A stretch of 24,000 bases of DNA from an uncultured Thalassospiraceae bacterium. GTDB lineage: Bacteria; Pseudomonadota; Alphaproteobacteria; Rhodospirillales; Magnetovibrionaceae. A model generated the notes under the pieces. The model saw nothing but the letters and a program-made list of their open reading frames with translations. It was not told the DNA's origin and did not search any database. Positions 4,240-23,964 of the stretch are shown piece by piece; the first letter of the stretch is position 1; each line of letters begins with the position of its first letter. The stretch covers positions 18,174 through 42,173 of the forward strand of contig CBFDBQ010000009.1 in NCBI GenBank assembly GCA_965603095.1, given 5' to 3'. Made by a program: the position numbers and the translations under genes.

Positions 4240-5337
4240 TTAAACTTTAGGCCCGCTTCCTTTTTTATATAATTTATTTACGTGGCCCATCTTGCGCCCG
4301 GCCCGCGCTTCGGCCTTGCCATATAGGTGCAGTTTGTTTTCAGGATCGGCTATAATTTTTTCCCAATCATCCGCGTCATCGCCAATAAGGTTTTTCATTA
4401 CCGCATCCGAATGACGCTCGGTACTGCCCAAATTAATTCCACAAACGGCGCGAACAAATTGTTCAAACTGGCTTGTGTTGCATCCATCTTGGGTCCAATG
4501 GCCGGAATTGTGTGGCCGGGGCGCCATTTCGTTTACTAAAATATCGCCATTTTCGGTGATGAACATCTCCACCGCTAGCAATCCAACAATATCCATTTTG
4601 GTTGCCATTTTTTCAGCGGTTTCGATTGCCACGGCCTGTAATTCATCGCTTATGTTTGCCGGCACGATGGTTATGTCTAAAATGCCGTGGTCGTGGCGGT
4701 TTTCAGCCACATCAAAGCTTTTCATTGTTCCGTCAATGGAGCGGGCGCAAATAACCGAAACCTCTAACTTAAAATCTACAAACCCTTCTAAAATGGCCGC
4801 ATCGGTTTCTAGTTCGGCCCATTTTTTATTTGCGTCATCACCTTGGTTAATGCGGACTTGGCCCTTGCCGTCATAACCTAGCCTAGTGGTTTTTAGTATG
4901 GCGGGCGTGCCAATATTTTCTATTGCCTGAATTAATTCATCTGCATTGTTTACCTCGGCCCAGGGTGCGGTTTTAATGCCCAGGCTTTCGGCAAAGGTTT
5001 TTTCTCTTATGCGGTCTTGGGCAATCTCAAGACACTGCCAGCCGGGACGAACAGGCTTAAGGCCAGCTAATATTTTAACGCTTTGGGCCGGCACATTTTC
5101 AAATTCAAAGGTTATCACATCGACGCCTGCGGCAAATTGTTTTAGTGCTCCCGCATCGTCATAGGGTGCAACAATAGTTTTGGCCGCAACTTGGGATGCG
5201 GGTGAATTTTGTTCTGGGGTGAATATGTGCGTTTGATAGCCAAGCTCTGCCGCCCCAACGGCTGTCATGCGCCCCAATTGACCACCACCAACAATACCAA
5301 TGGTTGAGCCGGGGGGAATTACTGCCTGATTGTTCAT
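4240..5337 (-). CDS. purK: N5-carboxyaminoimidazole ribonucleotide synthase
   Basis: It has an ATP-grasp architecture with N-terminal IGIVGGGQLGRM. It sits directly downstream of purE, which is the conserved purEK order. Confidence 0.93.
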   Translation of the reverse strand: MNNQAVIPPGSTIGIVGGGQLGRMTAVGAAELGYQTHIFTPEQNSPASQVAAKTIVAPYDDAGALKQFAAGVDVITFEFENVPAQSVKILAGLKPVRPGWQCLEIAQDRIREKTFAESLGIKTAPWAEVNNADELIQAIENIGTPAILKTTRLGYDGKGQVRINQGDDANKKWAELETDAAILEGFVDFKLEVSVICARSIDGTMKSFDVAENRHDHGILDITIVPANISDELQAVAIETAEKMATKMDIVGLLAVEMFITENGDILVNEMAPRPHNSGHWTQDGCNTSQFEQFVRAVCGINLGSTERHSDAVMKNLIGDDADDWEKIIADPENKLHLYGKAEARAGRKMGHVNKLYKKGSGPKV

Positions 5338-5352
5338 ATTAATTTAGTCCGA

Positions 5353-5844
5353 TTAATCAGATGGCGTTTCGGCAACGGCGTCGGTTTGTGCCGCCCGCCA
5401 TTTAGCCAATTCGCTCGCCACGGATGCATCGGAAAGAGCAATTACGCTGGCGGCTAAAAGTGCGGCATTTATTGCGCCGGCTTTTCCAATGGCCAATGTG
5501 CCAACCGGAACGCCAGCTGGCATTTGCGCGATGGAAAGAAGCGAGTCCATTCCTTTGAGCGCCTTGCTTTCTATGGGCACACCAAAAACAGGAAGCGTCG
5601 TCATGGAAGCGGTCATTCCGGGAAGGTGTGCGGCACCACCGGCGCCGGCAATTATTACTTTTATTCCACGTTCAGATGCGCTTTCGGCATATTCAGCCAT
5701 GCGCTTGGGTGTGCGGTGGGCCGAGACGATTCGGGTCTCGAACGTCACCCCAAGCGCCTCTAGGGTATCAGCACAATTTTTCATGGTATCCCAGTCGGAC
5801 TGGCTGCCCATGATAATTCCGATAACTGCCTTGGTATCAGACAT
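5353..5844 (-). CDS. purE: N5-carboxyaminoimidazole ribonucleotide mutase
   Basis: Class I PurE motifs are present: MGSQSDW, SAHRTP and [10 protein letters not shown]. Confidence 0.95.
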
Positions 5845-6038
5845 TGCTTAAAAGCCTTCTTTGTTTCAAACGGTTAATTACTTGAGGTTTACTGGCCCCC
5901 AAGAGGAAAGGCGGCAATTATAGGGATAGCGGCCTCGCTGGCAAGGGCTGGTTATGGGGCCTAGAATATTGCCATTTTTTTAAATATTTGGCGGTTATGA
6001 TACATTTTAAGCAGTGCTTTTAGTCAGGAAACTAGACC

Positions 6039-6824
6039 ATGTCTGACGACCCAATTGGATCATATGCGCCAGTGCACTCGGTTTCCCCCGAACGCGACAG
6101 AAAAATGCCGCGTCAAGAAAAGGTCTATGACCCCTCAACCCGAAAAAAAGGCGGTGATGGCGGTGGCGGTAGTGACGGCAAAAAGGAAAGTTTTGCTGGC
6201 GGCTCCGGCCACGAAGACATAAACGATGAAGTATCTATTTTGGGTATTCCCAAAGAAGAAATGAGCAAAAGCGTTACCGACGCCATAAATATTTTACTGG
6301 AAGAAATAAACTTTCTTAAAAGCGAGCTTGCAAAATCTCACGGCCATGAAGCCTATCTTGAAGAGCAGGTCGAAACCGATCTTAATTTGCACGTTTTAAG
6401 AAGGCGGGCTCTTACTTCAAAAATAATACATGCGGTTGGGCGGGTCGAAGAAGAAAACACACCCTATTCTTTTATTTTTATTACCATAAAAAATGCTCCG
6501 ACTACGGGTAAAGAGTTTGGCCGAGACGCATACGATGAATTAATCAAACAGGCGGCTGGCGCGCTGCGCGAAGGGGTGGAGCCGGGCGACATTTTAGGTA
6601 GCCTCAGAAACCATGATTTTGGAATAATTTTACCCGGCAACACTGTTGGCGATGCTGAATTGAAAGCACAATCATTGATGCTTTCGCTGGGCGGCAGGAA
6701 GCTTGTGTGGAAAGGTAGCGCCCTTGATATAGATGCTCGGTATGGAATAACTGGAATTAATTCAGGCGATAATATTGAAAATATTTTAGAACGCTCATCA
6801 AACGACCAGCAGCGCAGGGCTTGA
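6039..6824 (+). CDS. Degenerate GGDEF-domain protein with disordered Gly-rich N-terminus and a coiled coil
   Basis: The C-terminal half aligns to a GGDEF domain (DLNLHVLRRRAL ... FIFITI ... GSLRNHDFGIILPG). The GGDEF signature is RNHDF and the RxxD I-site position reads EPGD. An AGGAAA ribosome-binding site precedes the ATG. Confidence 0.75.
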   Translation: MSDDPIGSYAPVHSVSPERDRKMPRQEKVYDPSTRKKGGDGGGGSDGKKESFAGGSGHEDINDEVSILGIPKEEMSKSVTDAINILLEEINFLKSELAKSHGHEAYLEEQVETDLNLHVLRRRALTSKIIHAVGRVEEENTPYSFIFITIKNAPTTGKEFGRDAYDELIKQAAGALREGVEPGDILGSLRNHDFGIILPGNTVGDAELKAQSLMLSLGGRKLVWKGSALDIDARYGITGINSGDNIENILERSSNDQQRRA

Positions 6825-6859
6825 AGGGTTTAGGCGACATCTAAAAATGGAAGAGGTTT

Positions 6860-8656
6860 CTATATATCCTTGTCCTGAACATCCAGATCAAATTGCAATG
6901 CGGCTAGGTGTGCATACAGAGCGCTGGATTTTAATAATTCTGTATGGGTACCACTTGCTACCGGCCGTCCATTTTCAATCACCACTATGCGATCGGCGTT
7001 GACCACGGTGGCCAGTCGGTGGGCAATTACCAGCGTAGTCCGGCCAGCCTTTAATTTTTCCAAAGCCATTTGCACCAATCTCTCGTTTTCGGCGTCGAGC
7101 GCACTGGTTGCTTCGTCCAATAACAATACCGAAGGGTCGCGCAATAAAGCCCGCGCCAGAGAAATACGCTGGCGTTGCCCGCCCGATAAACGTACACCCT
7201 TTTCGCCAAGAAAAGTTGCGAAGCCATCCGGGAGCTGGTCGAGGAATTCAGCCGCGGCCGCGGCCTCTGCCGCCCTGCGAACAGATGCATCGTCGGCCTG
7301 AGGCTGGCCATAGCGTATATTTTCCCAACCGTTGGTGCCGAAAATTACTGGGTCCTGTGGCACAAAGGCAAAACTTTCACGCACCGCCTTGATGTCGGCG
7401 CTACGGATATCTATCCCATCAAGAAGCACACTTCCCAATTCCGGGTCATAGAAACGCAATAATAACTGAAATACCGTTGATTTTCCCGCTCCCGAAGGTC
7501 CAACCAGCGCCACCGTTTCGCCAGGATTAACATCGAGCGAGAAATCCACTAACGCCGCCCGGTCGGGGCGTGAAGGATAATGAAAGGTGACATTTTTAAA
7601 ACTGACCCGTCCCTCAGATGGAATGGGCAGGGTAGTGGGGTGTTCGGGTGAACTGATTTCCGGCACTTCCTCAAGCAATTCGATTAGTCGTTCGGTCGCA
7701 CCGGCGGCGCGGAGAAGCTCTCCATAGACCTCGCTGATAACGCCAACCGAAAAGGCGACAATAGTGGCATAATAAATAAACGCCGCTAGCTCGCCGCCGC
7801 TGATTTTGCCCGCCAGCATATCCCGGCCCCCAATCCACAATATCCCGGCGATTGCGCCGAAGACTAACAAGATAACAATCGCAGTCAGCAGACCGCGCAT
7901 GCGGATGCGCCGAACTGCAACCTGAAACGCATTGTTAACTTCACCGCCAAAACGCTTTCGGTCTTCGGCTTCATGGGTAAAGGCCTGCACCGTGCGAATG
8001 GCATTGATGGATTCTTCGGCAAAGGCACCAACATCGGCAACTCTGTCTTGGCTGGCGCGCGACAGTTTTCTGACCCGGCGACCGAAAATCATGATTGGGG
8101 CCACAACTACGGGAACCAAAAGCAAAACCATAGTCGTCAAGCGTGGGTTGGTGATGAACAGCATAATAATTCCACCCACAAGATTAATCGCATTACGTAG
8201 CGCCATAGACGCGGAAGAGCCGATAACAGATTGCAACAATGTCGTATCGGTGGTCAGCCGTGACAGGACTTCGCCGGTTTTGGTGGTTTCAAAAAATCCG
8301 ATATGCAGAGCCAGCACACGCTCGTATACGGCTTGGCGCAGGTCGGCCACTACCCGCTCGCCCAGCCACGATACCAGATAAAATCTAACGTAGGTTCCAA
8401 ACGCCATAATCACGGACAAACCCAATAGTAAAAACAGGGCACGATCCAGCGCCGCTGCGTTGCCGTTGGCAAAACCATTGTCGACCAGTTCGCGTAACCC
8501 CTGACCCAACCCTAGAACCGCCAACGCGGTAACGGTTAGCGCCACAATTGCACCAATAACTTGGCGCCAATAGGGTTTGAGAAATCCCGCCGTTTGTGAC
8601 AGGTAACGTAAATCCCGTCCCTTGGGACGGTCTGACGATGCACTGGATTGAGCCAA
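6860..8656 (-). CDS. Fused ABC exporter (transmembrane domain + ATPase), MsbA/ABCB-like
   Basis: It has a six-helix exporter domain, Walker A GPSGAGKST, signature LSGGQRQRISLARA, Walker B LLLDEATSALD and H-loop IAHRL. The start is TTG at 8656 with AGGGA upstream. Confidence 0.9.
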   Translation of the reverse strand: MAQSSASSDRPKGRDLRYLSQTAGFLKPYWRQVIGAIVALTVTALAVLGLGQGLRELVDNGFANGNAAALDRALFLLLGLSVIMAFGTYVRFYLVSWLGERVVADLRQAVYERVLALHIGFFETTKTGEVLSRLTTDTTLLQSVIGSSASMALRNAINLVGGIIMLFITNPRLTTMVLLLVPVVVAPIMIFGRRVRKLSRASQDRVADVGAFAEESINAIRTVQAFTHEAEDRKRFGGEVNNAFQVAVRRIRMRGLLTAIVILLVFGAIAGILWIGGRDMLAGKISGGELAAFIYYATIVAFSVGVISEVYGELLRAAGATERLIELLEEVPEISSPEHPTTLPIPSEGRVSFKNVTFHYPSRPDRAALVDFSLDVNPGETVALVGPSGAGKSTVFQLLLRFYDPELGSVLLDGIDIRSADIKAVRESFAFVPQDPVIFGTNGWENIRYGQPQADDASVRRAAEAAAAAEFLDQLPDGFATFLGEKGVRLSGGQRQRISLARALLRDPSVLLLDEATSALDAENERLVQMALEKLKAGRTTLVIAHRLATVVNADRIVVIENGRPVASGTHTELLKSSALYAHLAALQFDLDVQDKDI

Positions 8657-14104: not shown

Positions 14105-16066
14105 CTAGCCCTGGTTTTCTGGCGAATGCTGCTCAGATTGCTCAGGTGAAGAGGTGGGGGTAGGAGCCTCGGGTGTTGCCGGCACAATGTTCGCCTGAGC
14201 CGCTAAAACTGCGTTATCGATCTCTGCTTGTGCTGTCATTGCGGCAATATCTGCTTTGTCATCCCATACGTGTTCATAAAGGTAGGCCGGCCCATCAATG
14301 CCCTTCATCAGATAAGGGCCGCGCTTAACAAATTGCATTGTCCCACCCTTGAGCATTCCATAAACCGTATCAGATACCAAGTTCATGCCGTCACCACCCT
14401 TGTCAACAATTCGTGCCGCCATTTGTACGGTAACGCCATATAGATCATTTTCTTCAACCACCACAGAGCCCATGGCGGTGCCAATTTTTACCTTTAATGG
14501 AACATCCGGGGCGTTTTGGTTGTGTAGTTGGATAAGGCGCTGCATGTGCGCTGTAGAATTAACGCTGTTGGTTACATCTTCAAACGACGCCATTATTCCA
14601 TCACCGGTATGCTTGATTTCTTTGCCGTGGAACTTGATAAGGGCTTCGCGAACCACCTTGTTGTGGGCGCGAACAATTTCCTGCGCACCAAGGTTGCCCT
14701 TTTCATGGGTCATAGCGGTGGAGCCAACAATATCGGTAAACATTACGACAATTTGTCTTTCAGGATTATCGGGCTCTTTAGGCTTGTTCCATTCTTCTAA
14801 TGTTTCATCCATGCGTATGGCGCTATCGCCCTCACCCGCAAGATAGCCAGACATATCGCGCCTGCCGGACTGGAACATTTGCATATAGCGGGCATCTGAA
14901 AGCAAATATTCTTCATAGCGCTTGGCAAAGGCGTCGGCATTATTTTCAGCCATGCCCATTACCTTTAGGCTGTCAGAAAGTATTTTTTCCGTTTCATCTG
15001 ATTCAAGGTTTCTTTCAGAGCCGATTGCCTCGGCCGCACCAGCCAAATATAGGTTCACTCCAAAACGGTTATAATTATCCATTTTTTTGCGTTCTGCCGG
15101 AAGCTTACGAATTGATTCGCCAAAAAATGACATCATCACTACTTTTTGTTTTTCAGCATTTAACGACATCATTTCTTCAAATGCGTCATCTTCTTCGGGT
15201 GCAGTTTCTTCGGGAGCTTTGTCTTCTTCCTCTTTTTTCTTTATGGCTTCTTCAGTTTCTTTTTTGAGCGCGTCTTCGTTTTCGCTGTCGGATTCTTTTT
15301 CTTTTTTCTTGCGCTCGGCTTCCTCTTTTTTACGTTTTTCTTCTTCTTTTTTACGTGCCTCTTCGCGTTTCTTTCTTTCTTCGCGCGCGCTTAACTCTTC
15401 TTTTGTTTGTTTTTCCTGCTTTTCCTGTTTTTTTGGTGCAGGCTTGCGGTTTCTACTAGGCATGTTTGGTATATTAGGTACGTTTAATTCATCGCGCGCC
15501 ATAAACACCCGGAACGAACTTCCCACCGTAACAACAAAAAATAAAATAAACATACCAAACAGAACGTTGGCGCGCATTTTACCGTAAAGTGCAATGCCTA
15601 ATACTTTTTTGTGGGGCATCATTTCAGAGGCAATGCCGGTTACAACAGCCGCCAGCGCAAGACCAAATAATATAACCAATAAAAGTTTAGTAATGACCCC
15701 AAGCCCAGATGATTTCTTGCGTGATCTTTTTTTCCCACCACCAGTATCAAAATCAGGAACTTTCCCCCCACCACCACGTGGCCCGCCACCGCTGGCAAGA
15801 CGGGCAAAACGATCAGCATCAGAAGTATGCACCGATGCATTGGGGCTATTAAATTTATATACTATGTGTTCGTTATGCAGATGTGTTTCGGTATCAAAGG
15901 CATCGCGGATGACTTTTATGTCACCAACGCCCGGCATGGATTCAAGCGCCTTGGCTTCGTTGATTGCCTCATCGCGCTCATTTTCAGAAAATTGCGCGTG
16001 AATACGCCAGTTGCCGCTTTGCAGTACCTGAACTTCAAATGATATTTGAGTATTATCTTTGCCCAT
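14105..16066 (-). CDS. Membrane-anchored class III adenylate/guanylate cyclase with unknown N-terminal domain and a Lys/Glu-rich linker
   Basis: The C-terminal cyclase homology domain contains VVMFTDIVGSTAMT, IKHTGDGIMASF and YGVTVQMAARIV. Two hydrophobic helices lie at about residues 125-195. The charged low-complexity region is KKREEARKKEEEKRKKEEAERKKKEKE. Confidence 0.85.
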   Translation of the reverse strand: MGKDNTQISFEVQVLQSGNWRIHAQFSENERDEAINEAKALESMPGVGDIKVIRDAFDTETHLHNEHIVYKFNSPNASVHTSDADRFARLASGGGPRGGGGKVPDFDTGGGKKRSRKKSSGLGVITKLLLVILFGLALAAVVTGIASEMMPHKKVLGIALYGKMRANVLFGMFILFFVVTVGSSFRVFMARDELNVPNIPNMPSRNRKPAPKKQEKQEKQTKEELSAREERKKREEARKKEEEKRKKEEAERKKKEKESDSENEDALKKETEEAIKKKEEEDKAPEETAPEEDDAFEEMMSLNAEKQKVVMMSFFGESIRKLPAERKKMDNYNRFGVNLYLAGAAEAIGSERNLESDETEKILSDSLKVMGMAENNADAFAKRYEEYLLSDARYMQMFQSGRRDMSGYLAGEGDSAIRMDETLEEWNKPKEPDNPERQIVVMFTDIVGSTAMTHEKGNLGAQEIVRAHNKVVREALIKFHGKEIKHTGDGIMASFEDVTNSVNSTAHMQRLIQLHNQNAPDVPLKVKIGTAMGSVVVEENDLYGVTVQMAARIVDKGGDGMNLVSDTVYGMLKGGTMQFVKRGPYLMKGIDGPAYLYEHVWDDKADIAAMTAQAEIDNAVLAAQANIVPATPEAPTPTSSPEQSEQHSPENQG

Positions 16067-16720: not shown

Positions 16721-17041
16721 ATGAAAAACTTTGAAATTATGGTAGAAAAAGCCATTGAGAACCTGTTTGAAGCCACCATGCGTGAAATTGGCCATATGGC
16801 CGAGGTTGATCTGGAGGGCGGCATATTGAACATCGAACTGGATGACGGGCGCGTTTTCATAATAAACAAACATTCTCCCAATCGTCAGATATGGCTGTCA
16901 TCGCCGTTGAGCGGGGCACACCATTTTTCATTTGATCAAGGCAGTGGGGAATGGGTATCAACTAGGGATTCCGGGCAACTGCTAAACCTGCTTGAGGATG
17001 AATTATCTAGCATCAAAGGTGGGACGGTTAATCTTGTCTGA
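16721..17041 (+). CDS. cyaY: Frataxin-like iron-sulfur assembly protein CyaY
   Basis: It has the frataxin signature GILNIELDDGRVFIINKHSPNRQIWLSSPLSGAHHF. An AAGGAGG site precedes the ATG. Confidence 0.9.
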   Translation: MKNFEIMVEKAIENLFEATMREIGHMAEVDLEGGILNIELDDGRVFIINKHSPNRQIWLSSPLSGAHHFSFDQGSGEWVSTRDSGQLLNLLEDELSSIKGGTVNLV

Positions 17042-17501
17042 TATTGGGGCTAATGTAGAAATTTATATCGATGCCGATGCTTGCCCGGTCAAGGACGAGA
17101 CCATACGCGTGGCAACTCGCCATAATTTAAAAACCTATATGGTAAACGATGGTGGAATTCGCCCCAGCCAAAATCCATTGGTTGAATTGGTAATAGTCAC
17201 CCAAGGTGCAGACGCCGCCGATGATTGGATAGCGGAGCATATTAAAAAATCAGATATTTGCGTTACCAATGACATACCCCTTGCCGCTCGATGTCTTGAG
17301 GTAGGTGCATTTGCCATAAAGCCCAATGGCGAACGGTTTAGCGAAGATAGTATTGGAATGGCATTGGCCAATCGTGAATTGATGCAGGGGCTTCGTGAAA
17401 GTGGTGAAATAACTGGCGGGCCAAGACCATTTAGTAAATCTGATCGATCTCAATTTCTTGACCGTATGGAAACGGTTGTGCAAACAGCAATTCGAAAATA
17501 A
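17034..17501 (+). CDS. YaiI/YqxD family protein (UPF0178, DUF188)
   Basis: It has the family N-terminal motif IYIDADACPVKDE. The start is uncertain: in-frame candidates are TTG 16992, ATG 16998, GTG 17019 and TTG 17034. I chose 17034 because it gives the family-typical length and overlaps the cyaY stop. The stop overlaps the next ATG (TAATG). Confidence 0.75.
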   Translation: MSDIGANVEIYIDADACPVKDETIRVATRHNLKTYMVNDGGIRPSQNPLVELVIVTQGADAADDWIAEHIKKSDICVTNDIPLAARCLEVGAFAIKPNGERFSEDSIGMALANRELMQGLRESGEITGGPRPFSKSDRSQFLDRMETVVQTAIRK

Positions 17502-18096: not shown

Positions 18097-19299
18097 TTAG
18101 CTTTTATTTGAAATTGCATTTTTCTTGGCTAATGCATATTTATCCATTGAGCGCCACGCCAGAACAGCAACAAAAATCATAATAACCGCACCCGCCCAAT
18201 AGGGCCAATTTTTGCTAAGGCCGGCAAAAAGAAACCCTGCCCACATTGGCCCAATAACTCGGGCCATGGTGGTGGCTGATCTGGCCGCACCCATGACGGT
18301 TCCTTGGGCAGTGCTTTCCGTAAGCAGAGAAATCAAACTATTGAGCGAAGGGTTTATAACGCTAAATCCATATGCAACAACCATCATCGCCGCAACTAAC
18401 GCTGGTACGGTGGTGCAAAATGGAATAAGCGCCATGCCTAAGGCTAGCGCAACTGCGCCTTGCACAATAAGATTGGCCTCACCAAAACGATTGGCCAGCC
18501 TGCCAACCGCGCCGCCCTGTAAAATTGCCGCAATAATACCAATGAATGCAAATAGATATCCGTTTTGTTCTGGCCCCCAGCCGAATTGGCGCCTTGACCA
18601 CATGGCAAAGGTTGTTTCCATTCCGGCAAAAACAAATGTCGCCATAAATGATATGGCAATTAGAAGCCCAATGCCTGGCTTGTTAATTGTTTCAAGGAAA
18701 TCAGCAACTCGACCCTTTTTGGGTTTGTTTTTTAACTCTTCGCGGTGCTTGGGTGAAAGAGATTCCTTCAAAGTGAAAAATGCCAGCATAAATGCTGTAA
18801 GAGAAAATGCAGCCGCCGCCAACGCCGGCGATGTATAATCAGCATTTAGCGGATCGGGACCTGCTAGTATTCCACCGATAGCAGGGCCAGCAATAAATCC
18901 AATTCCAAAAGCGGCCCCGATAAGCCCCATGCCCTTGGCCCGATTTTCCGGTGTGGTTATGTCTGCAATGTATGCAAATGCGGTTGATATATTGCCCGCC
19001 ATTAATCCGCCAATTGCGCGGGCGATAAATAAAACCCATAGCGAGCTTGCGTAGGCCAGCATTGAATAGGAAAAAACCGAACCAACAAGGCTGATTAATA
19101 ATATTGGCCTGCGCCCCATGCTATCGCTAAGCCGCCCCCACAAAGGTGCGGCAATGAACTGACCAAGAGAATAGATCGCCATTAACATGGAAACGGTAAA
19201 GGGATCAGCCTGAAAGTGTTCGCCGTAAAATGGTAATAGGGGTATGACGATGCCGAAGCCCACTAGATCGATAAAAACGATCATGAAAATTATGAGCAT
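18097..19299 (-). CDS. MFS transporter (DHA1/TetA-like, 12 predicted helices)
   Basis: MFS motif A is present (GRLSDSMGRRPILL). The profile is hydrophobic throughout. Confidence 0.88.
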   Translation of the reverse strand: MLIIFMIVFIDLVGFGIVIPLLPFYGEHFQADPFTVSMLMAIYSLGQFIAAPLWGRLSDSMGRRPILLISLVGSVFSYSMLAYASSLWVLFIARAIGGLMAGNISTAFAYIADITTPENRAKGMGLIGAAFGIGFIAGPAIGGILAGPDPLNADYTSPALAAAAFSLTAFMLAFFTLKESLSPKHREELKNKPKKGRVADFLETINKPGIGLLIAISFMATFVFAGMETTFAMWSRRQFGWGPEQNGYLFAFIGIIAAILQGGAVGRLANRFGEANLIVQGAVALALGMALIPFCTTVPALVAAMMVVAYGFSVINPSLNSLISLLTESTAQGTVMGAARSATTMARVIGPMWAGFLFAGLSKNWPYWAGAVIMIFVAVLAWRSMDKYALAKKNAISNKS

Positions 19300-19420: not shown

Positions 19421-20509
19421 CTAGCGTCCCGTAAGTTTTAGTTCAATGCGTCTATTGCGCCTAAGCGATGCTTCATCATTGCCATCAGCATTGGGTTGAA
19501 ATTCACCAAACCCAGCAGCAACTAGACGGTTTGCTGGTATGCCTTCGCCTATAAGCTGTTTAACAACTGAAATAGACCTAGCTGAGCTTAGCTCCCAATT
19601 TGAACGGAATTTCTCATTTAAAATGGGAACCTTATCGGTATGGCCATCAACTCGTAACACCCAATCAACATCTTCTGGTATGCGTGCGCTAACTTCTAAT
19701 AAGGTTTTTGCCAGTCTTGATATTTGCTCTGTTCCCGGGGCACCAATATTTGTTTCGCCGCTGGAGAAAAGAACTTCAGATTGAAAAACAAAACGGTCAC
19801 CAACAACGCGAATTCCCGGATGATCACCCAATGTAATTTTTAGGCGACCAAAAAAGTCAGACCTGTATTGCTGCAATTCTTGAACTTTTCCTGCCAACGC
19901 CGCATTAAGACGTTTTCCTAGTGATACAATTTGAACATTTTGTTCTTTGGCTTTTTGTTCCGATGCATCAAGCGCACTGTTTAATGTTGATATTTGGTCT
20001 TTCATGGCGCCTAGCCGTTGGTTAAGCAACGCAACCTCGGCTCGCGCGCTCTCAGAAATATCTTGTTCTGCCAGCAATGCAGTTTCATTTTCTTCCAAGT
20101 TTAGGGCGAGCTTGCCTATGTCAATTTCTAATTGTTTTTTAAGGGCTGAAAGCTTTTCAACATCACCGGTCAGGCTGGATATTTCGATGCGACCCTTTTC
20201 AAGACTGTCATTTAATCGGTCACGATCAATAATTGATGCCTGCAATTCACCGGAAAGCCTGCCCACATCGCCGCGCAATGATTTTGATGTTTTTTGCTCC
20301 AGCGCCAATAGTTCTGAAATTTCGGCCATATCGCGGTCTAGTTTTTTAAGCGCATTTTCTCGCCCTGATAAAGCCTCGCCAAGAAAGAACTGCGCCAGTA
20401 CAAAAAGCAGCAACAGAAAAATAATAACCATTAACAGTGAAGCCAAGGCATCGACAAATCCGGGCCAGATATCTGCCCTGTTGCGGTGGCGTGCTAAAAG
20501 GCCTGCCAT
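19421..20509 (-). CDS. MotB-like protein: N-terminal TM with conserved Asp, ~170-aa coiled coil, C-terminal OmpA-type peptidoglycan-binding domain
   Basis: IWPGFVDALASLLMVIIFLLLLF resembles the MotB/ExbD/TolR plug-TM segment with its Asp. A long heptad-like segment spans about residues 48-215. The C-terminus has VDGHTDKVP ... SNWELSSARSISV ... RRNRRIELK. Confidence 0.85.
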   Translation of the reverse strand: MAGLLARHRNRADIWPGFVDALASLLMVIIFLLLLFVLAQFFLGEALSGRENALKKLDRDMAEISELLALEQKTSKSLRGDVGRLSGELQASIIDRDRLNDSLEKGRIEISSLTGDVEKLSALKKQLEIDIGKLALNLEENETALLAEQDISESARAEVALLNQRLGAMKDQISTLNSALDASEQKAKEQNVQIVSLGKRLNAALAGKVQELQQYRSDFFGRLKITLGDHPGIRVVGDRFVFQSEVLFSSGETNIGAPGTEQISRLAKTLLEVSARIPEDVDWVLRVDGHTDKVPILNEKFRSNWELSSARSISVVKQLIGEGIPANRLVAAGFGEFQPNADGNDEASLRRNRRIELKLTGR

Positions 20510-20533
20510 TATTAATCAGCCCTTTCTGTTTTT

Positions 20534-21676
20534 TTAAGAATCGTCCTTGGCGGCAACGGTACGCGCCAGCAATTTAATTTCGCTTCTAATCTGCGACACG
20601 GTTTCTTCGCGGCCCACTCTGTTTTCTTCTAGTAGTCTCGAAAGGCACAGATCCATGTTTCGTATGTGGGTGCGGGTGGCCTCATCCATGCTGTCATTTG
20701 CCCCATCGGCAAGGCGCTCAATAACTGGTTTTAGCTCTACTTGCGTTTCGGCAAGTTTTTTCATTACTGCCTGCTCGGTTTGCATGAAATCGGTCAGGGT
20801 TCCCATTTTTGCGGCCAAATCCGACAATGCTTCATGGGTTTTGTGTCGGTTTTCTTCGCCCCGGGATAATGTTCGTTGCAGATTTTCAAGACCTTCTGCT
20901 GTTTGCTCTAGCAATGCTTCAACATATGCTGGAACGCCCTGTTCGCCTTCTGTTGAAATATTACCCGATGAAAGCCGGGCCTGACCCGAAAGCCAGTCTT
21001 CAAGTTCGGTATAAAAACGGTTGTGGGCTTGTCCGGTTTGTAAATCCAAGAACCCCAAAACTAATGATCCGGCAAGGCCAAACAGTGATGATGAAAAAGC
21101 CGTTCCCATTCCGGTCAGGGGTTTTTCTAACCCACTTTTAAGCTCGTCAAATACTGCAGATATATTTCCGCCGCCGACCGATATGTTTGAAATAACATCG
21201 CGGATTGCACCTAGGGTATCAAGCAACCCCCAAAACGTACCAAGCAGACCAAGAAAAACTAGCAATCCAACTGTGTACCTAGAAATTTCACGCTGTTCAT
21301 CCAGCCTTGATGCGATGCCATCCAAAAGCGAACGCATGGCAATGGATGAAATTTTTATTTCCGAACGATCGCCCAGCATTGCTGCCATGGGCGATAGCAA
21401 TGTTGGGGTAGGGGCGCTTGAGCTTAAATCCTGAACCGATGGCTGGCGCGGTGCGCCGGAACGAAAATGCTCTATCCATTCCAATTCGGGGCCAAGCTGT
21501 AATACTTGGCGAAAACTGTTTATTGCGCCAAGCAAAAATACACCAACAATAAGCCCATTAAGCGGGGCATTGGCCATAAATGCGGTTTTAAGCGGTGATA
21601 CCACTAGCACCACGCCAGCGGTAACAACCACAAGGAATAACGTCATTCTAATAAGGTAGCGACTAGGAGCTGTCAT
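20534..21676 (-). CDS. MotA/TolQ/ExbB-family proton-channel protein with ~165-aa C-terminal helical tail
   Basis: There are four hydrophobic helices. The last pair (VGLLVFLGLLGTFWGLLDTLG and GMGTAFSSSLFGLAGSLVLGFL) resembles the MotA_ExbB signature. An AGGGGAA site lies upstream. There is a 24-nt gap to the MotB-like gene. Confidence 0.8.
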   Translation of the reverse strand: MTAPSRYLIRMTLFLVVVTAGVVLVVSPLKTAFMANAPLNGLIVGVFLLGAINSFRQVLQLGPELEWIEHFRSGAPRQPSVQDLSSSAPTPTLLSPMAAMLGDRSEIKISSIAMRSLLDGIASRLDEQREISRYTVGLLVFLGLLGTFWGLLDTLGAIRDVISNISVGGGNISAVFDELKSGLEKPLTGMGTAFSSSLFGLAGSLVLGFLDLQTGQAHNRFYTELEDWLSGQARLSSGNISTEGEQGVPAYVEALLEQTAEGLENLQRTLSRGEENRHKTHEALSDLAAKMGTLTDFMQTEQAVMKKLAETQVELKPVIERLADGANDSMDEATRTHIRNMDLCLSRLLEENRVGREETVSQIRSEIKLLARTVAAKDDS

Positions 21677-21725
21677 TGGTGGTCGGTTCCCCTAAGCGGT
21701 AGCTCTATTTATATGGGTACCGCCG

Positions 21726-22961
21726 TTAGCGTTCGATTACAGTTATATCAACTCGTTCAGTTTCAGCATCACTTGTTTTATTGCCGAGCGCACGAACATC
21801 AATCCGGGTGCTGCGAACACCGCTTTCAATCAAGTATGAGCGAACCGCTAAAGCCCTAGAAAGCGATAACCTTCGGGCAGCGCTGGACGACATTTCTGCC
21901 CCACCAGCATAAGCTAGCAATTGCAGACGTAAATCTTCTTGTTTGGTCATGCTGGTAGCTAGACCGCGCAATTCTTCACGCGCATCAGCAGGAAGTTTTG
22001 CATTTTCCGCTTCAAATAAAACCCGCATGGAATATCCATCAGCAATGGTTGCCCCGGCTGGCGGCAGGGATGCAACAGAAGGTGCTTCGGGTGCTTCTTT
22101 TGTTATTTCAGGAAGTTTGGCCACCACTTTTGGCGGTTCTGGAACCTCAACCACTGGCGGTGGTGCGGGTGGTGCAACCGGTTCAGCTATTTTTTCTTCT
22201 TTTACTTCTTCTTTTATTTCATTTGCGGCAATTTCTTTGGCAGGCGCCGCTTCTAGCTTTACAGGTGTTTCTGTCACTGGTGTTACGGGCACCGGTGCGG
22301 GCGTAGGTTCCGGTGGTGGAGGCGGTGCTTTTGGAGCCTCTGGTTCGGCGCTTACAACTTCTTTGACAGCCTCTTTGACCACTTCTTTGGGTTTTTCAAT
22401 TGCTACCGGTTCCGGTGGCGGTGCCAGCTCTTCTTTTGCTAATTCTGGTGCAGATTTTTCTTCAATGGCCGCAACAACCGGTGGTGGTGGCGCAACGGGA
22501 ATTTCTTTTTTTACAACTTCGGTTTTTGGTTCAGCCTTTGGAATTTCTTTAGGTGCTTCTGCGGGCATTTCCGCAGACATTTCTTTAGGTGTTTCTGGCG
22601 CTACAAACTTGAACTTGAACTTTGTGGTATTTTCATCTGCCTTAACAAAACTGCTTGAAGGTGCATTAGCAGGCGCAATGTAAAGCGTTGAAACAGGCGC
22701 CTTAGGCCCAGGGATAAGATGCCCTTTGCTGCTTGTGTTGCTTGTTCTTTTTGTGGTTGGTGAGGTGCGCGCAATGGGGCCAACGCCGCTATCTTCCAAA
22801 ACTGAAAAATCAACGCTTACATTAGGATTGGAAAAATCAAGCACGATTGACTCTTGTGCGTTTGCGCCAAATGGGATTGCGATAGAGCCCATACCAACGC
22901 TTAACGAAATAACTAAAGAGTGAAAAAATACGGAGTGGCCCGTTTTACTAACAGCGGACAT
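21726..22961 (-). CDS. Proline-rich envelope protein with N-terminal hydrophobic segment and C-terminal OmpA-like domain
   Basis: The N-terminus is MSAVSKTGHSVFFHSLVISLSVGMGSIAIPFGANAQ. A Pro/Glu/Lys/Ala/Val-rich spacer of about 175 aa follows (EAPKEIPKAEPK, APPPPVV, PPPPPEPTPAPVPV). The C-terminus reads LQLLAYAGG ... RRLSLSRALAVRSYLIESGV ... ERVDITV. I prefer the ATG at 22961. The ORF-track start is TTG at 22970. Confidence 0.75.
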   Translation of the reverse strand: MSAVSKTGHSVFFHSLVISLSVGMGSIAIPFGANAQESIVLDFSNPNVSVDFSVLEDSGVGPIARTSPTTKRTSNTSSKGHLIPGPKAPVSTLYIAPANAPSSSFVKADENTTKFKFKFVAPETPKEMSAEMPAEAPKEIPKAEPKTEVVKKEIPVAPPPPVVAAIEEKSAPELAKEELAPPPEPVAIEKPKEVVKEAVKEVVSAEPEAPKAPPPPPEPTPAPVPVTPVTETPVKLEAAPAKEIAANEIKEEVKEEKIAEPVAPPAPPPVVEVPEPPKVVAKLPEITKEAPEAPSVASLPPAGATIADGYSMRVLFEAENAKLPADAREELRGLATSMTKQEDLRLQLLAYAGGAEMSSSAARRLSLSRALAVRSYLIESGVRSTRIDVRALGNKTSDAETERVDITVIER

Positions 22962-23172
22962 TTTTATCAATTTCTCCCAGAGTGACGTTTGCCATATTAT
23001 AGTAAGATTATAACAAGTTAGTTGCGATATCCCTAAGCGCGAACCATCTTTGTAAACAGACCATAACCAAGGGTGTGGCCGTGGGCAACATTCTATCGGG
23101 TGAAGTTAGCCGAGGCCCTACATAATTTATTTTGAATTTATATTAATATTAAAAAACGGCTGATTTCAGCTA

Positions 23173-23964
23173 TTATTTAACCATCTTTAGAAGTTTGGGG
23201 TGAAGCTTGTCGTTGGCGCATACAATATCACCAGTTTCCAGCATTCCTTTGCGCCCGCTAATATCGGTCACAAAGCCACCGGCTTCGCGAACAAGGGCGA
23301 TTCCCGCGGCCATATCCCATTTTTGCAGACCCGTTTCCCAGAAACCATCATAGCGTCCGGCCGCAACGTAGGCCAAATCAAGGGCGGCTGAGCCAAATCT
23401 GCGAACACCGGCTGAAACGCTCATTACATTTTCCAGACGTTCAAGAAAGCGTTCTTCCTTGCCCGATTCCATAAATGGTATGCCAGTGGAAAAAAGAGAT
23501 TCTGAAACTTCTTTGCGCGCTGATACACGAATTCGCCGTCCATTTAAAAATGCGCCTTGGCCTTTTTCCGCCCAATACATTTCATCTTGAACTGGGTTGT
23601 AGATAACGCCCGCAAAGACATCGTTATCGCGCACTAGCCCGATTGAAATTGCAAAATGGGGAATGCCATGAAGAAAGTTTGTGGTGCCATCAAGCGGATC
23701 AATAATCCATGTGCTGGATTCATCTTTGCCTTTTATTATGCCTCTTTCTTCTAATATGAAGCCATAATCGGGTCGGGCTTTTTTAAGTTCGCGCACTATT
23801 GTGTCTTCGGCAGTTTTATCAGCGATGGTTACAAAATCAGCCGGGCCTTTTTTTGAAACTAGCAAGTGTTCAACCTCGCCAAAATCTCGCACCAATTTAC
23901 GCGCGGCCTTGGTCGCCGCCGCGGTCATTACATTTATAAGAGCCGATGAATTTATATGTGCCAT
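23173..23964 (-). CDS. suhB: Inositol monophosphatase family protein (SuhB-like)
   Basis: IMPase motifs are present: WIIDPLDGTTNFLHG, and DGFWE with AAG near the C-terminus. Confidence 0.9.
   Translation of the reverse strand: MAHINSSALINVMTAAATKAARKLVRDFGEVEHLLVSKKGPADFVTIADKTAEDTIVRELKKARPDYGFILEERGIIKGKDESSTWIIDPLDGTTNFLHGIPHFAISIGLVRDNDVFAGVIYNPVQDEMYWAEKGQGAFLNGRRIRVSARKEVSESLFSTGIPFMESGKEERFLERLENVMSVSAGVRRFGSAALDLAYVAAGRYDGFWETGLQKWDMAAGIALVREAGGFVTDISGRKGMLETGDIVCANDKLHPKLLKMVK

What the first reader, a model, noticed from the sequence alone, without database searches (positions are those of the whole stretch)
19421..22970. Uncharacterised three-gene module that mirrors TolQ-TolR-TolA / ExbB-ExbD-TonB logic with different output domains
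Three co-directional genes are separated by gaps of only 49 and 24 nt.
(1) The first encodes a protein with an N-terminal hydrophobic segment, a ~175-aa Pro/Glu/Lys-rich spacer and an OmpA-like domain.
(2) The second encodes a MotA/ExbB-family four-helix channel protein.
(3) The third encodes a MotB-like protein with the conserved membrane Asp (FVDAL), a very long coiled coil and an OmpA-type peptidoglycan-binding domain.
MotAB, ExbBD, TolQR and ZorAB are known to form 5:2 ion-driven rotary complexes, and TonB and TolA are extended, proline- or helix-rich periplasm-spanning partners. This triad has all three roles. It differs in that both the B subunit and the third partner end in OmpA-like domains, and the A subunit carries an extra tail. 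No flagellar, TonB-receptor or pal/tolB genes flank it. I do not know of an assigned function for this architecture. It may be an ion-motive-force-driven envelope machine, for example for tethering or remodelling peptidoglycan and the outer membrane.
Basis: partly seen in the sequence, partly recalled or inferred. Interest (0 to 1): 0.8.

Follow-up and report, generated by a model that had tools for sequence, protein, structure and literature searches.

The report
Alphaproteobacterial MotAB-like motor of unknown function
Two of the three genes encode a strongly conserved, core-genome relative of the ion-driven motors that power flagella, Tol-Pal, TonB and Zorya, with an unusual long coiled-coil rod tying it to the cell wall; its job is still unknown, and the third gene is an optional periplasmic accessory, not a TonB/TolA-like partner.

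Summary
Three co-directional minus-strand genes lie at 22970-19421, with gaps of 49 and 24 nt.

**A (380 aa)** has an ExbB/TolQ/ZorA-like fold, the LGLLGTFWG motif and a conserved 145-aa cytoplasmic helical tail.

**B (362 aa)** has an invariant membrane Asp. A continuous heptad coiled coil of about 180 residues follows, then a MotB-type peptidoglycan-binding domain.

**Conservation.** A and B are adjacent in 79 of 80 alphaproteobacterial genome loci, inside a housekeeping gene order (thiE-efp-IMPase-[P]-A-B).
- They are not the Tol, Exb, flagellar Mot or Zorya orthologues.
- B already has an NCBIfam family, named only "peptidoglycan-binding protein".
- The pair was studied as "motA/motB" in non-flagellated Komagataeibacter hansenii. 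The GFP fusions were polar, and cell length and cellulose structure changed.

**P (414 aa)** is a secreted periplasmic protein.
- It has a cleavable signal peptide, no TonB/TolA SHLS anchor, and a degenerate OmpA-like domain.
- It is absent from about a quarter of loci and from Sinorhizobium.
- The TolQ-TolR-TolA analogy therefore fails for P.

**New here:** B's rod varies from about 155 to 515 residues, almost always in multiples of seven.

**Verdict:** a new variant of a known kind (5:2-type ion-driven motor) with unknown function.

The parts
21726..22970 (-). Gene P: secreted Pro/Glu/Lys-rich periplasmic protein with a divergent OmpA-like C-terminal domain (414 aa from the TTG; probable true start is the ATG at 22961)
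   Evidence: ORF. GGGAGA lies upstream of the ATG at 22961. Orthologues sit directly upstream of A in most loci, and some overlap A's start by 4 nt.
22857..22970 (-). P signal peptide (...SLSVGMGSIAIPFGANA | QE)
   Evidence: Translation. An equivalent A-x-A|Q signal peptide is recognisable in 36 of 48 orthologues, and none of 48 has an SHLS motif.
22071..22640 (-). P Pro/Glu/Ala/Lys/Val-rich extended linker (about 190 aa)
   Evidence: Composition: 43 P, 36 E, 30 A, 24 K and 24 V in 190 residues. Its length varies among orthologues.
21768..22019 (-). P OmpA-like domain, variant type: AYAGG replaces the canonical GHTD, while LSLSRA is kept
   Evidence: Pfam PF00691, E 1.6e-10, residues 318-401. 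None of the 25 orthologues in which the script located the domain core (48 examined) has an HTD-type Asp.
20534..21676 (-). Gene A: MotA/ExbB/TolQ/ZorA-superfamily A subunit (380 aa)
   Evidence: Pfam 22.0 bits against a 22.9 cut-off, and PADLOC ZorA1 E 1.9e-13. The AF2 model has pLDDT 86. Foldseek matches ExbB 5sv0, ZorA 8vvn and TolQ 9ddm with probability 1.0. The family has 558 clusters at 50% identity with E <= 1e-30.
21032..21649 (-). A membrane domain (residues 10-215: four predicted TM helices, a 70-aa cytoplasmic loop, LGLLGT147FWG and PLxGMGTAFSSS motifs)
   Evidence: Invariant columns are L142 G143 G146 T147 W149 G150 L151 T154 P186 M190 F194 G200 L201. Helices come from the model.
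20537..20971 (-). A cytoplasmic tail (residues 236-380: flexible linker, then helices 250-324 and 332-379 with a conserved C-terminal ExRxEIRLLxRTIA motif)
   Evidence: Helix 250-324 has 3.5-residue periodicity, z = 7.3.
19421..20509 (-). Gene B: MotB-like B subunit, member of NCBIfam NF006543 (PRK09039.1-2, 'peptidoglycan-binding protein')
   Evidence: 436 bits against a cut-off of 305. Adjacent to A in 79 of 80 loci.
20381..20467 (-). B transmembrane helix with the invariant Asp20 (codon 20452..20450), followed by the conserved juxtamembrane AQFFLGEALSGR
19826..20377 (-). B periplasmic coiled-coil rod (residues 45-228; about 27 nm if it is a straight parallel dimer). The indel hot spot lies near residues 100-110.
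   Evidence: Heptad phase is constant from residue 45 to about 184. Length is quantised in multiples of seven across homologues. The hot spot is seen in the alignment.
19451..19768 (-). B MotB/PomB-type peptidoglycan-binding domain with canonical GHTD ... ELSSAR
   Evidence: Pfam OmpA E 7.6e-12. PDB sequence matches include MotB 6ysf at 9e-15, plus MotS and PomB.
18097..19299 (-). Downstream co-directional MFS transporter. It is probably a lineage-specific neighbour and is not established as part of the system.
   Evidence: Its best NCBIfam hit is the Tet(A)/(B)/(C)-family MFS model, well below that model's cut-off. It follows B after only 3-14 nt in L082, L087, L088 and L089, but after 121 nt here. 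It was detected in only 12 of the 80 genome loci.

Best explanation
A and B form a distinct, vertically inherited alphaproteobacterial branch of the MotAB/ExbBD/TolQR/ZorAB superfamily. They are most likely an ion-driven (probably proton-driven) A5B2 complex.

Proposed mechanism:
- Ions would pass between B-Asp20 and the A-subunit Thr147 and Ser195/197 positions. This is inferred by analogy with ZorA T147/S184 and ZorB D26.
- The two B chains leave the membrane as one continuous parallel coiled-coil rod. It has about 180 residues here and 155-515 in relatives.
- The rod ends in a MotB-type domain with intact peptidoglycan-binding residues, so B is the wall-anchored axle.
- The A pentamer would turn or step around B. 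It would deliver work or a signal through its conserved 145-residue cytoplasmic tail, or through its membrane periphery, to a partner not yet identified.
- In this layout it is a 'Zorya turned inside out': a short tail inside the cell and a long rod outside.

Likely physiological role: housekeeping, not motility, import or defence. The best guess is an envelope, cell-pole or cell-separation function. The only experiments on the family (K. hansenii) show polar localisation and changes in cell length and chaining.

P is a lineage-restricted periplasmic accessory, comparable in logic to MotY or Pal. It is secreted, extended, and has a degenerate OmpA-like domain and a conserved N-terminal V-x-V-D-L-S-V-L motif. 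It is often translationally coupled to A. It is not a membrane-anchored force transducer.

Shown: the anatomy, conservation, synteny, non-orthology to known systems and heptad-quantised rod length.
Inferred: the 5:2 stoichiometry, ion flow, rotation, which side carries the output, and the physiological role.
For: Fold and motifs of A.

Invariant Asp and intact GHTD/ELSSAR peptidoglycan-binding residues in B. PDB sequence matches to MotB, MotS and PomB peptidoglycan-binding domains.

Continuous heptad register.

Rod length conserved modulo 7 (distance from Asp20 to the C-terminus):
- 115 of 118 close homologues fall in one residue class, at lengths 328-419 in steps of 7.
- 46 of 74 diverse genomes fall in the same class, against about 11 expected. 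Another 9 sit at +4, the size of a classical coiled-coil stutter.

Synteny: A-B adjacent in 79 of 80 loci and in Sinorhizobium meliloti. They lie within thiE-efp-IMPase-[P]-A-B.

Conservation: 60-70% identity across genera, and more than 8000 database hits for each protein.

Not Tol, Exb, Mot or Zorya by curated models.

Komagataeibacter hansenii:
- It has no flagella.
- Its 'motA/motB' primers translate to the family's N- and C-terminal consensus: MTRPTTY, TLYQAF, AITVVK, QPLDNG, EFRLTDR*.
- The GFP fusions are polar, and overexpression gives elongated, chained cells.
- Disruption mutants are viable and make denser cellulose.

Zorya residue analogy: PMC11946911.
Against: - No multimer prediction or experiment supports 5:2 assembly or rotation for this family.
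- Pfam MotA_ExbB is just below threshold. A profile of the family finds no solved A subunit by sequence, only coiled-coil noise.
- Rods of 50-75 nm in some species cannot stand perpendicular in a periplasm roughly 20-30 nm wide. The geometry is therefore unresolved.
- The AF2 monomer model of B is only moderately confident (pLDDT 71) and breaks the rod at residues 139-144.
- The K. hansenii phenotypes come from overexpression and are indirect. The link to that work rests on primer-derived peptides and the BLAST table in the paper, not on full sequences.
- No cytoplasmic partner for the tail is encoded nearby.
Confidence: 0.6

Rival explanations
1. Tol/Ton-like trans-envelope force transduction. 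A-B energise P, which acts as a TolA/TonB-type periplasm-spanning arm pulling on peptidoglycan or the outer membrane.
For: - P-A-B are tightly linked. The gap is 49 nt here, and the upstream Pro-rich ORF overlaps A's start by 4 nt in Acetobacteraceae-type loci.
- P has a TonB-like Pro/Glu/Lys-rich spacer.
- Five of six sampled P-domain homologues sit in a P-A-B context.
Against: - P has a cleavable signal peptide, recognisable in 36 of 48 orthologues.
- None of 48 has the SHLS/His transmembrane motif through which TonB and TolA dock on the motor (criterion).
- P is absent from loci such as L008, L014, L058, L063, L066 and L071, and from S. meliloti. In those, IMPase directly precedes A.
- P's length does not co-vary with B's rod length (rho = -0.14, p = 0.43).
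- P's OmpA-like domain lacks the canonical Asp.
- One genome keeps P without A-B (L084).
Confidence: 0.1
2. B itself is the periplasm-spanning transducer, with GldM/PorM-like logic. The coiled-coil rod is the moving output: it is rotated or pulled by a static A pentamer, and it remodels or tensions peptidoglycan or the outer membrane at its far end.
For: - The rod continues directly from the TM helix with no flexible linker or MotB-type plug.
- Its minimum length (about 140-155 residues, roughly 21-23 nm) is close to the width of the periplasm.
- Strict heptad conservation implies a mechanically important rigid rod.
Against: - The distal domain keeps canonical peptidoglycan-binding residues. 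That suits an anchor better than a rotor.
- Rod length varies more than three-fold, which is hard to reconcile with a fixed working distance.
- The conserved A tail suggests that the output is cytoplasmic.
Confidence: 0.15
3. It is not a motor. It is a static inner-membrane-to-peptidoglycan tether or a gated ion channel / mechanosensor, in which ion flow is incidental or regulatory.
For: - The long, variable tether and the peptidoglycan-binding domain.
- No adjacent output partner.
- K. hansenii disruption mutants are viable.
Against: - The invariant Asp20 in B and the invariant Thr/Gly/Pro motifs in A's TM3 and TM4 are the residues that define working members of the superfamily.
- The whole A protein, tail included, is strongly conserved.
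Confidence: 0.08
4. A Zorya-like anti-phage sensor.
For: The best profile matches for A and B are ZorA1 (E 1.9e-13) and ZorB3 (E 1.1e-23) in PADLOC. A has a cytoplasmic tail.
Against: - No ZorC, ZorD or ZorE-like gene lies nearby.
- The position is fixed in the core genome, next to efp and IMPase, across orders.
- The tail is 145 aa, against about 500 in ZorA. B carries a rod, whereas ZorB's peptidoglycan-binding domain is fused without a linker.
- NCBIfam ZorA models score 22 bits against cut-offs of 100-500.
Confidence: 0.03
5. A cryptic or auxiliary flagellar stator, as many database annotations state ('flagellar motor protein MotA', 'chemotaxis protein MotB').
For: Source names. B's peptidoglycan-binding domain is closest to those of MotB, MotS and PomB. 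A has four predicted TM helices.
Against: - No NCBIfam MotA model matches A, and the MotB-family models fall far below their cut-offs.
- The pair is present in non-flagellated Komagataeibacter.
- It coexists with the genuine flagellar mot genes in S. meliloti (PMC9541039, listed).
- No flagellar gene lies in the window or in the related loci.
Confidence: 0.03

Closest known systems
ZorAB (core of the Zorya anti-phage systems; E. coli ZorA5B2, PDB 8qyd and 8vvn)
   Same: - Gives the best sequence-profile matches for both subunits and is among the top fold matches.
- The A subunit has a helical cytoplasmic tail.
- The B subunit has a TM Asp and a peptidoglycan-binding domain but no MotB-type plug.
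- Thr and Ser positions face the Asp.
   Different: - The tail is 145 aa and is joined by a flexible linker. ZorA has a continuous pentameric coiled coil of about 500 aa (70 nm).
- B carries a periplasmic rod of 155-515 residues. ZorB's peptidoglycan-binding domain is fused directly to the TM helix.
- There are no ZorC or ZorD genes.
- The pair sits in the core genome with conserved synteny, not in a defence island.
TolQ-TolR-TolA / ExbB-ExbD-TonB
   Same: The A-subunit fold matches: ExbB 5sv0 at E 7e-4, TolQ 9ddm. A LGLLGTxWG-type motif is present. A Pro-rich periplasmic protein is encoded alongside.
   Different: - No TolQ, TolR, ExbB or ExbD equivalog model matches.
- B has a MotB-type OmpA domain, unlike the TolR/ExbD periplasmic fold.
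- P is secreted, with no TM anchor and no SHLS motif.
- There are no tolB, pal, cpoB or TonB-dependent receptor genes nearby.
- S. meliloti has a separate, essential Tol-Pal system (PMC7327166).
Flagellar MotAB / PomAB (with MotX/MotY)
   Same: - A has four predicted TM helices.
- B's peptidoglycan-binding domain is closest to those of MotB, MotS and PomB.
- P resembles MotY in logic: a secreted accessory with an OmpA-like domain. It gives a weak MotY hit, E 6e-5.
   Different: - No MotA model matches.
- There is no plug or flexible linker; a rigid coiled coil takes its place.
- The cytoplasmic TM2-TM3 loop is only about 70 aa.
- The pair occurs in a bacterium without flagella.
Komagataeibacter hansenii 'MotA/MotB' (Jacek et al. 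2019, PMC6570709)
   Same: This is the same family. It is the only one with experimental data.
- Primer-derived peptides match the family consensus at both ends of both proteins.
- The sizes are similar (348 and 321 aa) and the genes are adjacent.
[quoted passage not shown]
   Different: That work treated the genes as motility-related genes for cellulose engineering. It did not define the family, the rod, the tail, P or a mechanism. A P-like gene was not examined there.
GldLM / PorLM (type IX secretion and gliding motor)
   Same: A long dimeric periplasmic extension of the B-like subunit emerges from a pentameric ion channel.
   Different: There is no detectable sequence relationship. GldM is not a coiled coil and has no peptidoglycan-binding domain. 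This is a comparison of architecture only, made from general knowledge and not tested here.

Membership tests
MotA/ExbB/TolQ/ZorA superfamily (A subunit of 5:2 motors) | Sequence match to Pfam PF01618 above the gathering threshold | tested here: inconclusive
   22.0 bits against a cut-off of 22.9, E 1.5e-4, residues 102-173. Some homologues carry a precomputed PF01618 hit (P0034; L085 'faint').
MotA/ExbB/TolQ/ZorA superfamily (A subunit of 5:2 motors) | The fold of the membrane domain | tested here: met
   The AF2 model (pLDDT 86) matches ExbB, ZorA and TolQ with probability 1.0 and a target-normalised TM-score of about 0.55. PomA (probability 0.97) and a MotA chimera (0.89) match more weakly. 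About 220 columns align.
MotA/ExbB/TolQ/ZorA superfamily (A subunit of 5:2 motors) | Conserved polar and Gly/Pro residues of the last two TM helices that line the ion path | tested here: met
   G143, G146, T147, G150, T154, P186 and G200 are invariant. S195 and S197 are conserved in at least 90% of 47 sequences down to 35% identity. The correspondence to ZorA T147/S184 is inferred.
MotB/ExbD/TolR/ZorB (B subunit) | A single N-terminal TM helix with a conserved Asp | tested here: met
   W15-P16-G17-F18-V19-D20 is invariant in 43 sequences. The motif was also found in 73 of the 74 genome-derived B ORFs that were measured.
MotB/ExbD/TolR/ZorB (B subunit) | MotB-type plug helix (PF13677) and flexible linker | tested here: not met
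   No PF13677 hit at E <= 0.1. The TM helix runs straight into the coiled coil.
5:2 ion-driven rotary motor | A5B2 stoichiometry and rotation | not testable with these tools
   Only monomer prediction was available.
NCBIfam NF006543 (PRK09039.1-2, 'peptidoglycan-binding protein') | Full-length score above the curated cut-off | tested here: met
   436.4 bits against a cut-off of 305, covering residues 8-362. The S. meliloti orthologue matches sister model NF006544 at 692 bits.
Tol-Pal (TolQRA) | TolQ/TolR orthology, and a TolA with an N-terminal TM helix bearing the SHLS/His motif | tested here: not met
   No TolQ or TolR model matches at E <= 0.1. P has a signal peptide, and none of 48 orthologues has SHLS. 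No tolB, pal or cpoB gene lies in the window.
ExbBD-TonB | ExbB/ExbD orthology, a TonB TM anchor, and an association with TonB-dependent receptors | tested here: not met
   No ExbB or ExbD model matches. B has an OmpA-type domain. No receptor gene lies in the window or in the related loci.
Flagellar stator MotAB/PomAB | MotA/MotB equivalog match, and dependence on a flagellum | tested here: not met
   No MotA model matches A. MotD, MotS and MotB models score 48-99 bits against cut-offs of 250-301. The family is present in non-flagellated K. hansenii.
Zorya | ZorA/ZorB together with ZorC/ZorD (or ZorE etc.) effectors, a very long ZorA tail, and a defence-island context | tested here: not met
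   The PADLOC ZorA and ZorB hits are partial. NCBIfam ZorA models score 22 bits against a cut-off of 100. No effector genes are present. The core-genome synteny is conserved.
OmpA-like peptidoglycan-binding domain (for P) | The canonical pair of residues that contact diaminopimelate: the Asp of G-H-T-D and the Arg of L-S-x-x-R-A | tested here: not met
   P has AYAGG where GHTD is expected, but keeps LSLSRA. No HTD-type Asp was found in the 25 orthologues where the domain core could be located. Which residues contact peptidoglycan is taken from general knowledge of OmpA and Pal structures.

The most novel reading that the evidence does not exclude
A-B may be a functional class of 5:2 ion-driven motor that has not yet been named. 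It would be a housekeeping, core-genome relative of Zorya's ZorAB and possibly its evolutionary source. It would be found across Alphaproteobacteria and be anchored to the wall by a heptad-registered periplasmic coiled-coil axle of tunable length. It would act at the cell poles on division, cell separation or envelope organisation through a conserved cytoplasmic tail.
Probability: 0.35. Interest if true: 0.8.

Novelty: new variant of a known kind. Interest (0 to 1): 0.6.

Why it matters
All well-understood 5:2 motors (MotAB, ExbBD, TolQR, GldLM, ZorAB) each opened up a field: motility, import, envelope integrity, secretion and immunity. This pair is as conserved as a housekeeping gene across Rhodospirillales, Acetobacteraceae, Kiloniellales and Rhizobiaceae. 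It sits at a fixed chromosomal position and is routinely mis-annotated as a flagellar stator. Its function is nevertheless unknown.

- Working out what it energises could reveal an alphaproteobacterial envelope or polarity mechanism. That would be relevant to rhizobia and acetic acid bacteria, and to pathogens if they prove to carry the pair.
- The heptad-quantised rod gives a clean, testable structural rule.
- The resemblance to ZorAB offers a route to understanding where the Zorya sensor came from.
- On the practical side, thousands of 'MotA/MotB' annotations in non-motile Alphaproteobacteria are probably wrong.

Tried and rejected
1. Sequence searches of A against PDB chains found no solved A subunit. 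This held both for the single sequence and for a 47-sequence profile. The profile returned only coiled-coil noise from the tail.
2. The Rgs/Tol-Pal polar-growth interactome of S. meliloti (PMC7327166) and the Rhodobacter CenKR paper were checked for this pair. Neither mentions it.
3. Literature searches for PRK09039, MotAB-like, and ZorA/TolQR/ExbBD surveys found no characterisation beyond the Komagataeibacter work. The MotAB evolution paper (PMC12505986) does not describe this architecture.
4. P's length does not co-scale with B's rod length: Spearman rho = -0.14, p = 0.43.
5. The S-x3-H in this window's P signal peptide looked like a TonB SHLS motif, but it is not conserved (0 of 48).
6. A hairpin (antiparallel) rod was considered, because the AF2 monomer model of B breaks at residues 139-144. 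It is judged unlikely. The heptad phase runs unbroken through the break. The length-variable hot spot lies at about residues 100-110, not at the break.
7. An exact-sequence look-up of the window's A protein found no recorded contig.
8. Cluster look-ups of distant representatives gave no taxonomy.
10. The search with P's C-terminal domain listed only proteins of 200 aa or fewer. These are truncated gene calls or fragments, so it says nothing about P's full architecture.

Full report
**1. What is in the sequence**

Three ORFs lie head to tail on the minus strand:
- P, 22970..21726 (414 aa);
- A, 21676..20534 (380 aa);
- B, 20509..19421 (362 aa).

The gaps are 49 and 24 nt.
- Upstream, the inositol-monophosphatase gene (23964..23173) ends in a hairpin followed by a run of T. 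About 200 nt of AT-rich spacer follow.
- The P-A spacer holds only a weak inverted repeat with no T-run, plus A's ribosome-binding site.
- P-A-B therefore looks like one transcription unit.
- A co-directional MFS transporter gene follows B after 121 nt.
- The rest of the window is housekeeping. It encodes def, a COQ9-family protein, purK, purE, an MsbA-related ABC transporter, an acyl-CoA ligase, a quinone oxidoreductase, cyaY, yaiI and yjdM, plus GGDEF and cyclase proteins.

**2. The A subunit**

- Pfam MotA_ExbB scores 22.0 bits, just under its 22.9 cut-off.
- No NCBIfam TolQ, ExbB or MotA model matches. The ZorA models score only 14-22 bits against cut-offs of 100-500.
- The best profile hit is PADLOC ZorA1, E 1.9e-13.
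- An AlphaFold2 model built on 47 homologues (down to 35% identity) has mean pLDDT 86.
- Foldseek matches the model to ExbB (5sv0), ZorA (8vvn, 8qyd) and TolQ (9ddm, 8vlw) with probability 1.0 over about 220 columns. PomA (probability 0.97) and a MotA chimera (0.89) match more weakly.
- Invariant residues cluster in the last two TM helices. They are L142 G143 G146 T147 W149 G150 L151 T154 and P186 M190 F194 G200 L201, with S195 and S197 near-invariant.
- These form the LGLLGTxWG and PxxGxxxAxxxS/T signatures of the superfamily. In ZorA, Thr147 and Ser184 contact ZorB Asp26 (PMC11946911).
- After TM4 come a poorly conserved linker (236-249) and two long helices (250-324 and 332-379). The first has strong 3.5-residue periodicity (z = 7.3).
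- The extreme C-terminus carries a conserved ExRxEIRLLxRTIA motif. The tail belongs to the family as a whole, because homologues align over residues 1-377.

**3. The B subunit**

- B matches the curated NCBIfam equivalog NF006543 (PRK09039.1-2, "peptidoglycan-binding protein") at 436 bits against a cut-off of 305. MotB, MotD and MotS models stay far below their cut-offs.
- The N-terminus (basic residues, then WPGFVD20AL...) is invariant.
- The TM helix runs without a plug or flexible linker into a helix predicted from residue 15 to 138, and on to 227.
- The heptad phase is constant from residue 45 to about 184. It is therefore most simply a single continuous coiled coil of about 180 residues, or about 27 nm as a straight parallel dimer.
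- The C-terminal domain resembles those of MotB, MotS and PomB (PDB 6ysf at 9e-15). It keeps the canonical GHTD...ELSSAR residues.

**4. A rule for the rod**

I measured the distance from the invariant Asp to the C-terminus, which does not depend on start-codon calls.
- In close homologues, 115 of 118 fall in one residue class modulo 7. The lengths are 328, 335, 342, 349, 370, 377, 391, 398, 405, 412 and 419.
- In 74 genomes of wider diversity the distance ranges from 321 to 681. Of these, 46 are in the same class, against about 11 expected. That covers 20 of the 45 distinct lengths.
- The next class, with 9 genomes, is offset by +4. That is the size of a classical coiled-coil stutter.
- The insertions cluster at one hot spot, near residues 100-110, between two well-conserved coil segments.
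- The rod is therefore under selection to stay in register while its length drifts more than three-fold.
- Rods of 50-75 nm cannot stand perpendicular in a periplasm a few tens of nanometres wide (general knowledge). The orientation remains open.

**5. Conservation and context**

- Each protein has more than 8000 database relatives, with 60-70% identity across genera. A has 558 clusters at 50% identity with E <= 1e-30.
- The 80 best genome loci are labelled Rhodospirillales, Acetobacteraceae, Kiloniellales, Azospirillum, Roseomonas, Defluviicoccus and others. B follows A in 79 of them; the exception is a 1.6-kb contig.
- The conserved order is gap-thiE-efp-IMPase-[P]-A-B.
- The same IMPase-A-B arrangement occurs in the Sinorhizobium meliloti chromosome, without P. 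It has purEK and an ABC transporter nearby, as in this window.
- This is a vertically inherited core-genome locus, not an island.
- S. meliloti also has its own essential Tol-Pal system (PMC7327166) and its own flagellar mot genes (PMC9541039, listed). The pair is therefore an additional system.

**6. The P protein**

- P orthologues lie directly upstream of A in roughly three quarters of the loci that could be assessed. In Acetobacteraceae-type loci the upstream Pro-rich ORF overlaps A's start by 4 nt.
- P is missing where IMPase abuts A (L008, L014, L058, L063, L066, L071 and S. meliloti).
- A signal peptide ending A-x-A|Q is recognisable in 36 of 48 orthologues (here ...FGANA|QE).
- The mature N-terminus carries a conserved V-x-V-D-L-S-V-L motif.
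- None of the 48 has the SHLS motif. None of the 25 in which the domain core could be located has the GHTD Asp (they read AYAxG), although the LSLSRA Arg is kept.
- P's length does not track B's rod length.
- Of six P-domain homologues sampled from the protein database, five sit in a P-A-B-MFS context. One sits next to cyaY with A, B and MFS missing.
- P is therefore a genuine but dispensable, lineage-restricted partner that lives in the periplasm. It cannot dock on the motor the way TonB and TolA do, through a TM helix with the SHLS/His motif (PMC12204202). MotY or Pal is the better analogy.

**7. What is already known**

[quoted passage not shown] They name B "peptidoglycan-binding protein" or "chemotaxis protein MotB".
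- The only experiments I found are on Komagataeibacter hansenii, which has no flagella. Adjacent "motA" (348 aa) and "motB" (321 aa) were described there as its only motility-like genes (PMC6570709).
- The published primers translate to (M)TRPTTY and TLYQAF for MotA. For MotB they translate to MARRSR, AITVVK, QPLDNG and EFRLTDR*.
- These peptides match this family's consensus (MxxPxxxLxRM, LxxAFxxN, ARAISVVK, QPIDxG, RRIELKLTxR). I conclude that the K. hansenii genes belong to the same family.
- In that organism, overexpression gave longer, chained cells, more colony spreading and looser cellulose. The GFP fusions were polar, and bipolar in long cells.
- Disruption mutants were viable and made denser cellulose.
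- The authors noted that the energy-receiving partner is unknown.

**8. Interpretation**

- The best-supported reading is a distinct branch of the 5:2 ion-driven motor superfamily. It is anchored to the wall through B's rod and peptidoglycan-binding domain.
- A's conserved cytoplasmic tail is the likely output. The layout is Zorya-like, but with a short tail and a long rod.
- It would serve a housekeeping envelope or cell-pole function.
- The stoichiometry, the rotation, the direction of output and the physiological role are all inferred.
- The rivals are: P as a TolA/TonB-like arm, B's rod as the moving transducer, a static tether or sensor, a defence system, and a flagellar stator. Each is weighed in the structured fields.
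- The Tol-like role for P, the defence reading and the stator reading are each contradicted by tests run here.

**9. Verdict**

It is right about the A-B core and its unassigned function. It is wrong about P filling the TolA/TonB role, and it overstates how unnoticed the genes are.
- Novelty: a new variant of a known kind.
- Interest: 0.6. The pair is a widely conserved motor with no known function and has a clear, new structural rule. However, it is already catalogued and has been lightly studied, and the mechanism remains inferential.

Noticed in passing
window 19826-20377 (B rod); homologues P0121-P0240 and loci L001-L080: The length of B's coiled coil changes almost only in multiples of seven residues. 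In close homologues, 115 of 118 fall in one residue class. In diverse genomes 46 of 74 do, and 9 more sit at +4, the size of a stutter. The length itself ranges from about 155 to 515 residues. Insertions cluster at one hot spot near residue 100-110.
   Followed up: yes
window 18097-19299 (-); L082, L087, L088, L089: A 400-aa MFS transporter whose best NCBIfam hit is the Tet(A)/(B)/(C)-family model (well below its cut-off) follows B co-directionally. The gap is only 3-14 nt in several relatives and 121 nt here, so it may be co-transcribed in this clade. It was detected in only 12 of the 80 wider loci. In relatives, rpmE or cyaY follows it.
   Followed up: partly
L082, L085, L088, L089 and most hits: Public gene calls truncate P to its last 100-200 residues, leaving about 0.6-1 kb 'empty' after the IMPase gene. 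The Pro-rich region seems to defeat gene finders, so P is systematically under-annotated.
   Followed up: partly
L084 (GCA_015231795.1, JADGAX010000001.1), 5001-5528: A P-like gene sits next to cyaY with no A, B or MFS within 5 kb. In L087 the order is P-A-B-MFS-cyaY. This looks like a deletion of A-B-MFS that left P behind, or else a relocated paralogue.
   Followed up: partly
L012, 7158-8027 (-): A 289-aa ORF that I judged by eye to resemble an IS5-family transposase lies between A and B in this Rhodospirillales MAG. It was not scanned against any family library. It separates the two genes by about 1 kb. Other loci also show unexplained A-B spacers of 190-360 nt (L020, L051, L055, L075, L077, L079).
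   Followed up: partly
L081 = CP090106.1: The record is titled 'Sinorhizobium meliloti strain Ak57 plasmid pSymB'. However, it is 3.72 Mb and carries rpmE, purEK and thiE. It appears to be the chromosome, mislabelled. Three Sinorhizobium sp. 'plasmid' records of 3.52 Mb and a Shinella record of 4.6 Mb look the same.
   Followed up: no
L004, L024, L038, L073 (record titles): MAGs labelled Gammaproteobacteria, Patescibacteria, Mycobacteriaceae and 'beta proteobacterium' carry loci 48-58% identical to this alphaproteobacterial locus. L004 and L024 also show the full IMPase-P-A-B order. Mis-binning or mislabelling is likely.
   Followed up: no
L008 (Defluviicoccus sp. SSA4, CP058705.1): The ORF holding the B C-terminal match is only 188 aa, with an Asp-like motif 133 residues from the end. 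Yet tblastn aligns B residues 7-362 there. A frameshift, a pseudogene or an assembly error is possible.
   Followed up: no
window 4240-8656 and 23173-23964; L081: purK, purE, an MsbA-related ABC transporter and the IMPase gene accompany the A-B pair both in this window and in S. meliloti. Relatives show gap-thiE-efp-IMPase upstream. The gene order is unusually stable across orders.
   Followed up: partly
window 21677-21725 (-): The P-A spacer contains an inverted repeat (GCGGTAC ... CTACCGC) just upstream of A's AGGGGA ribosome-binding site. No T-run follows it. It could be a processing or translational-control element, or it could be chance.
   Followed up: no
window 521-1438 (-), 6039-6824 (+), 14105-16066 (-): The same window also encodes a PleD-like response-regulator diguanylate cyclase, a weak or degenerate GGDEF protein, and a 653-aa protein with an adenylate/guanylate-cyclase-type C-terminus. 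No link to the A-B pair was found.
   Followed up: no
window 16992-17501 (+): The listed YaiI/YqxD ORF starts at a TTG inside cyaY (16721-17041). The family match begins at residue 23, so the real start is probably downstream of cyaY's stop.
   Followed up: no
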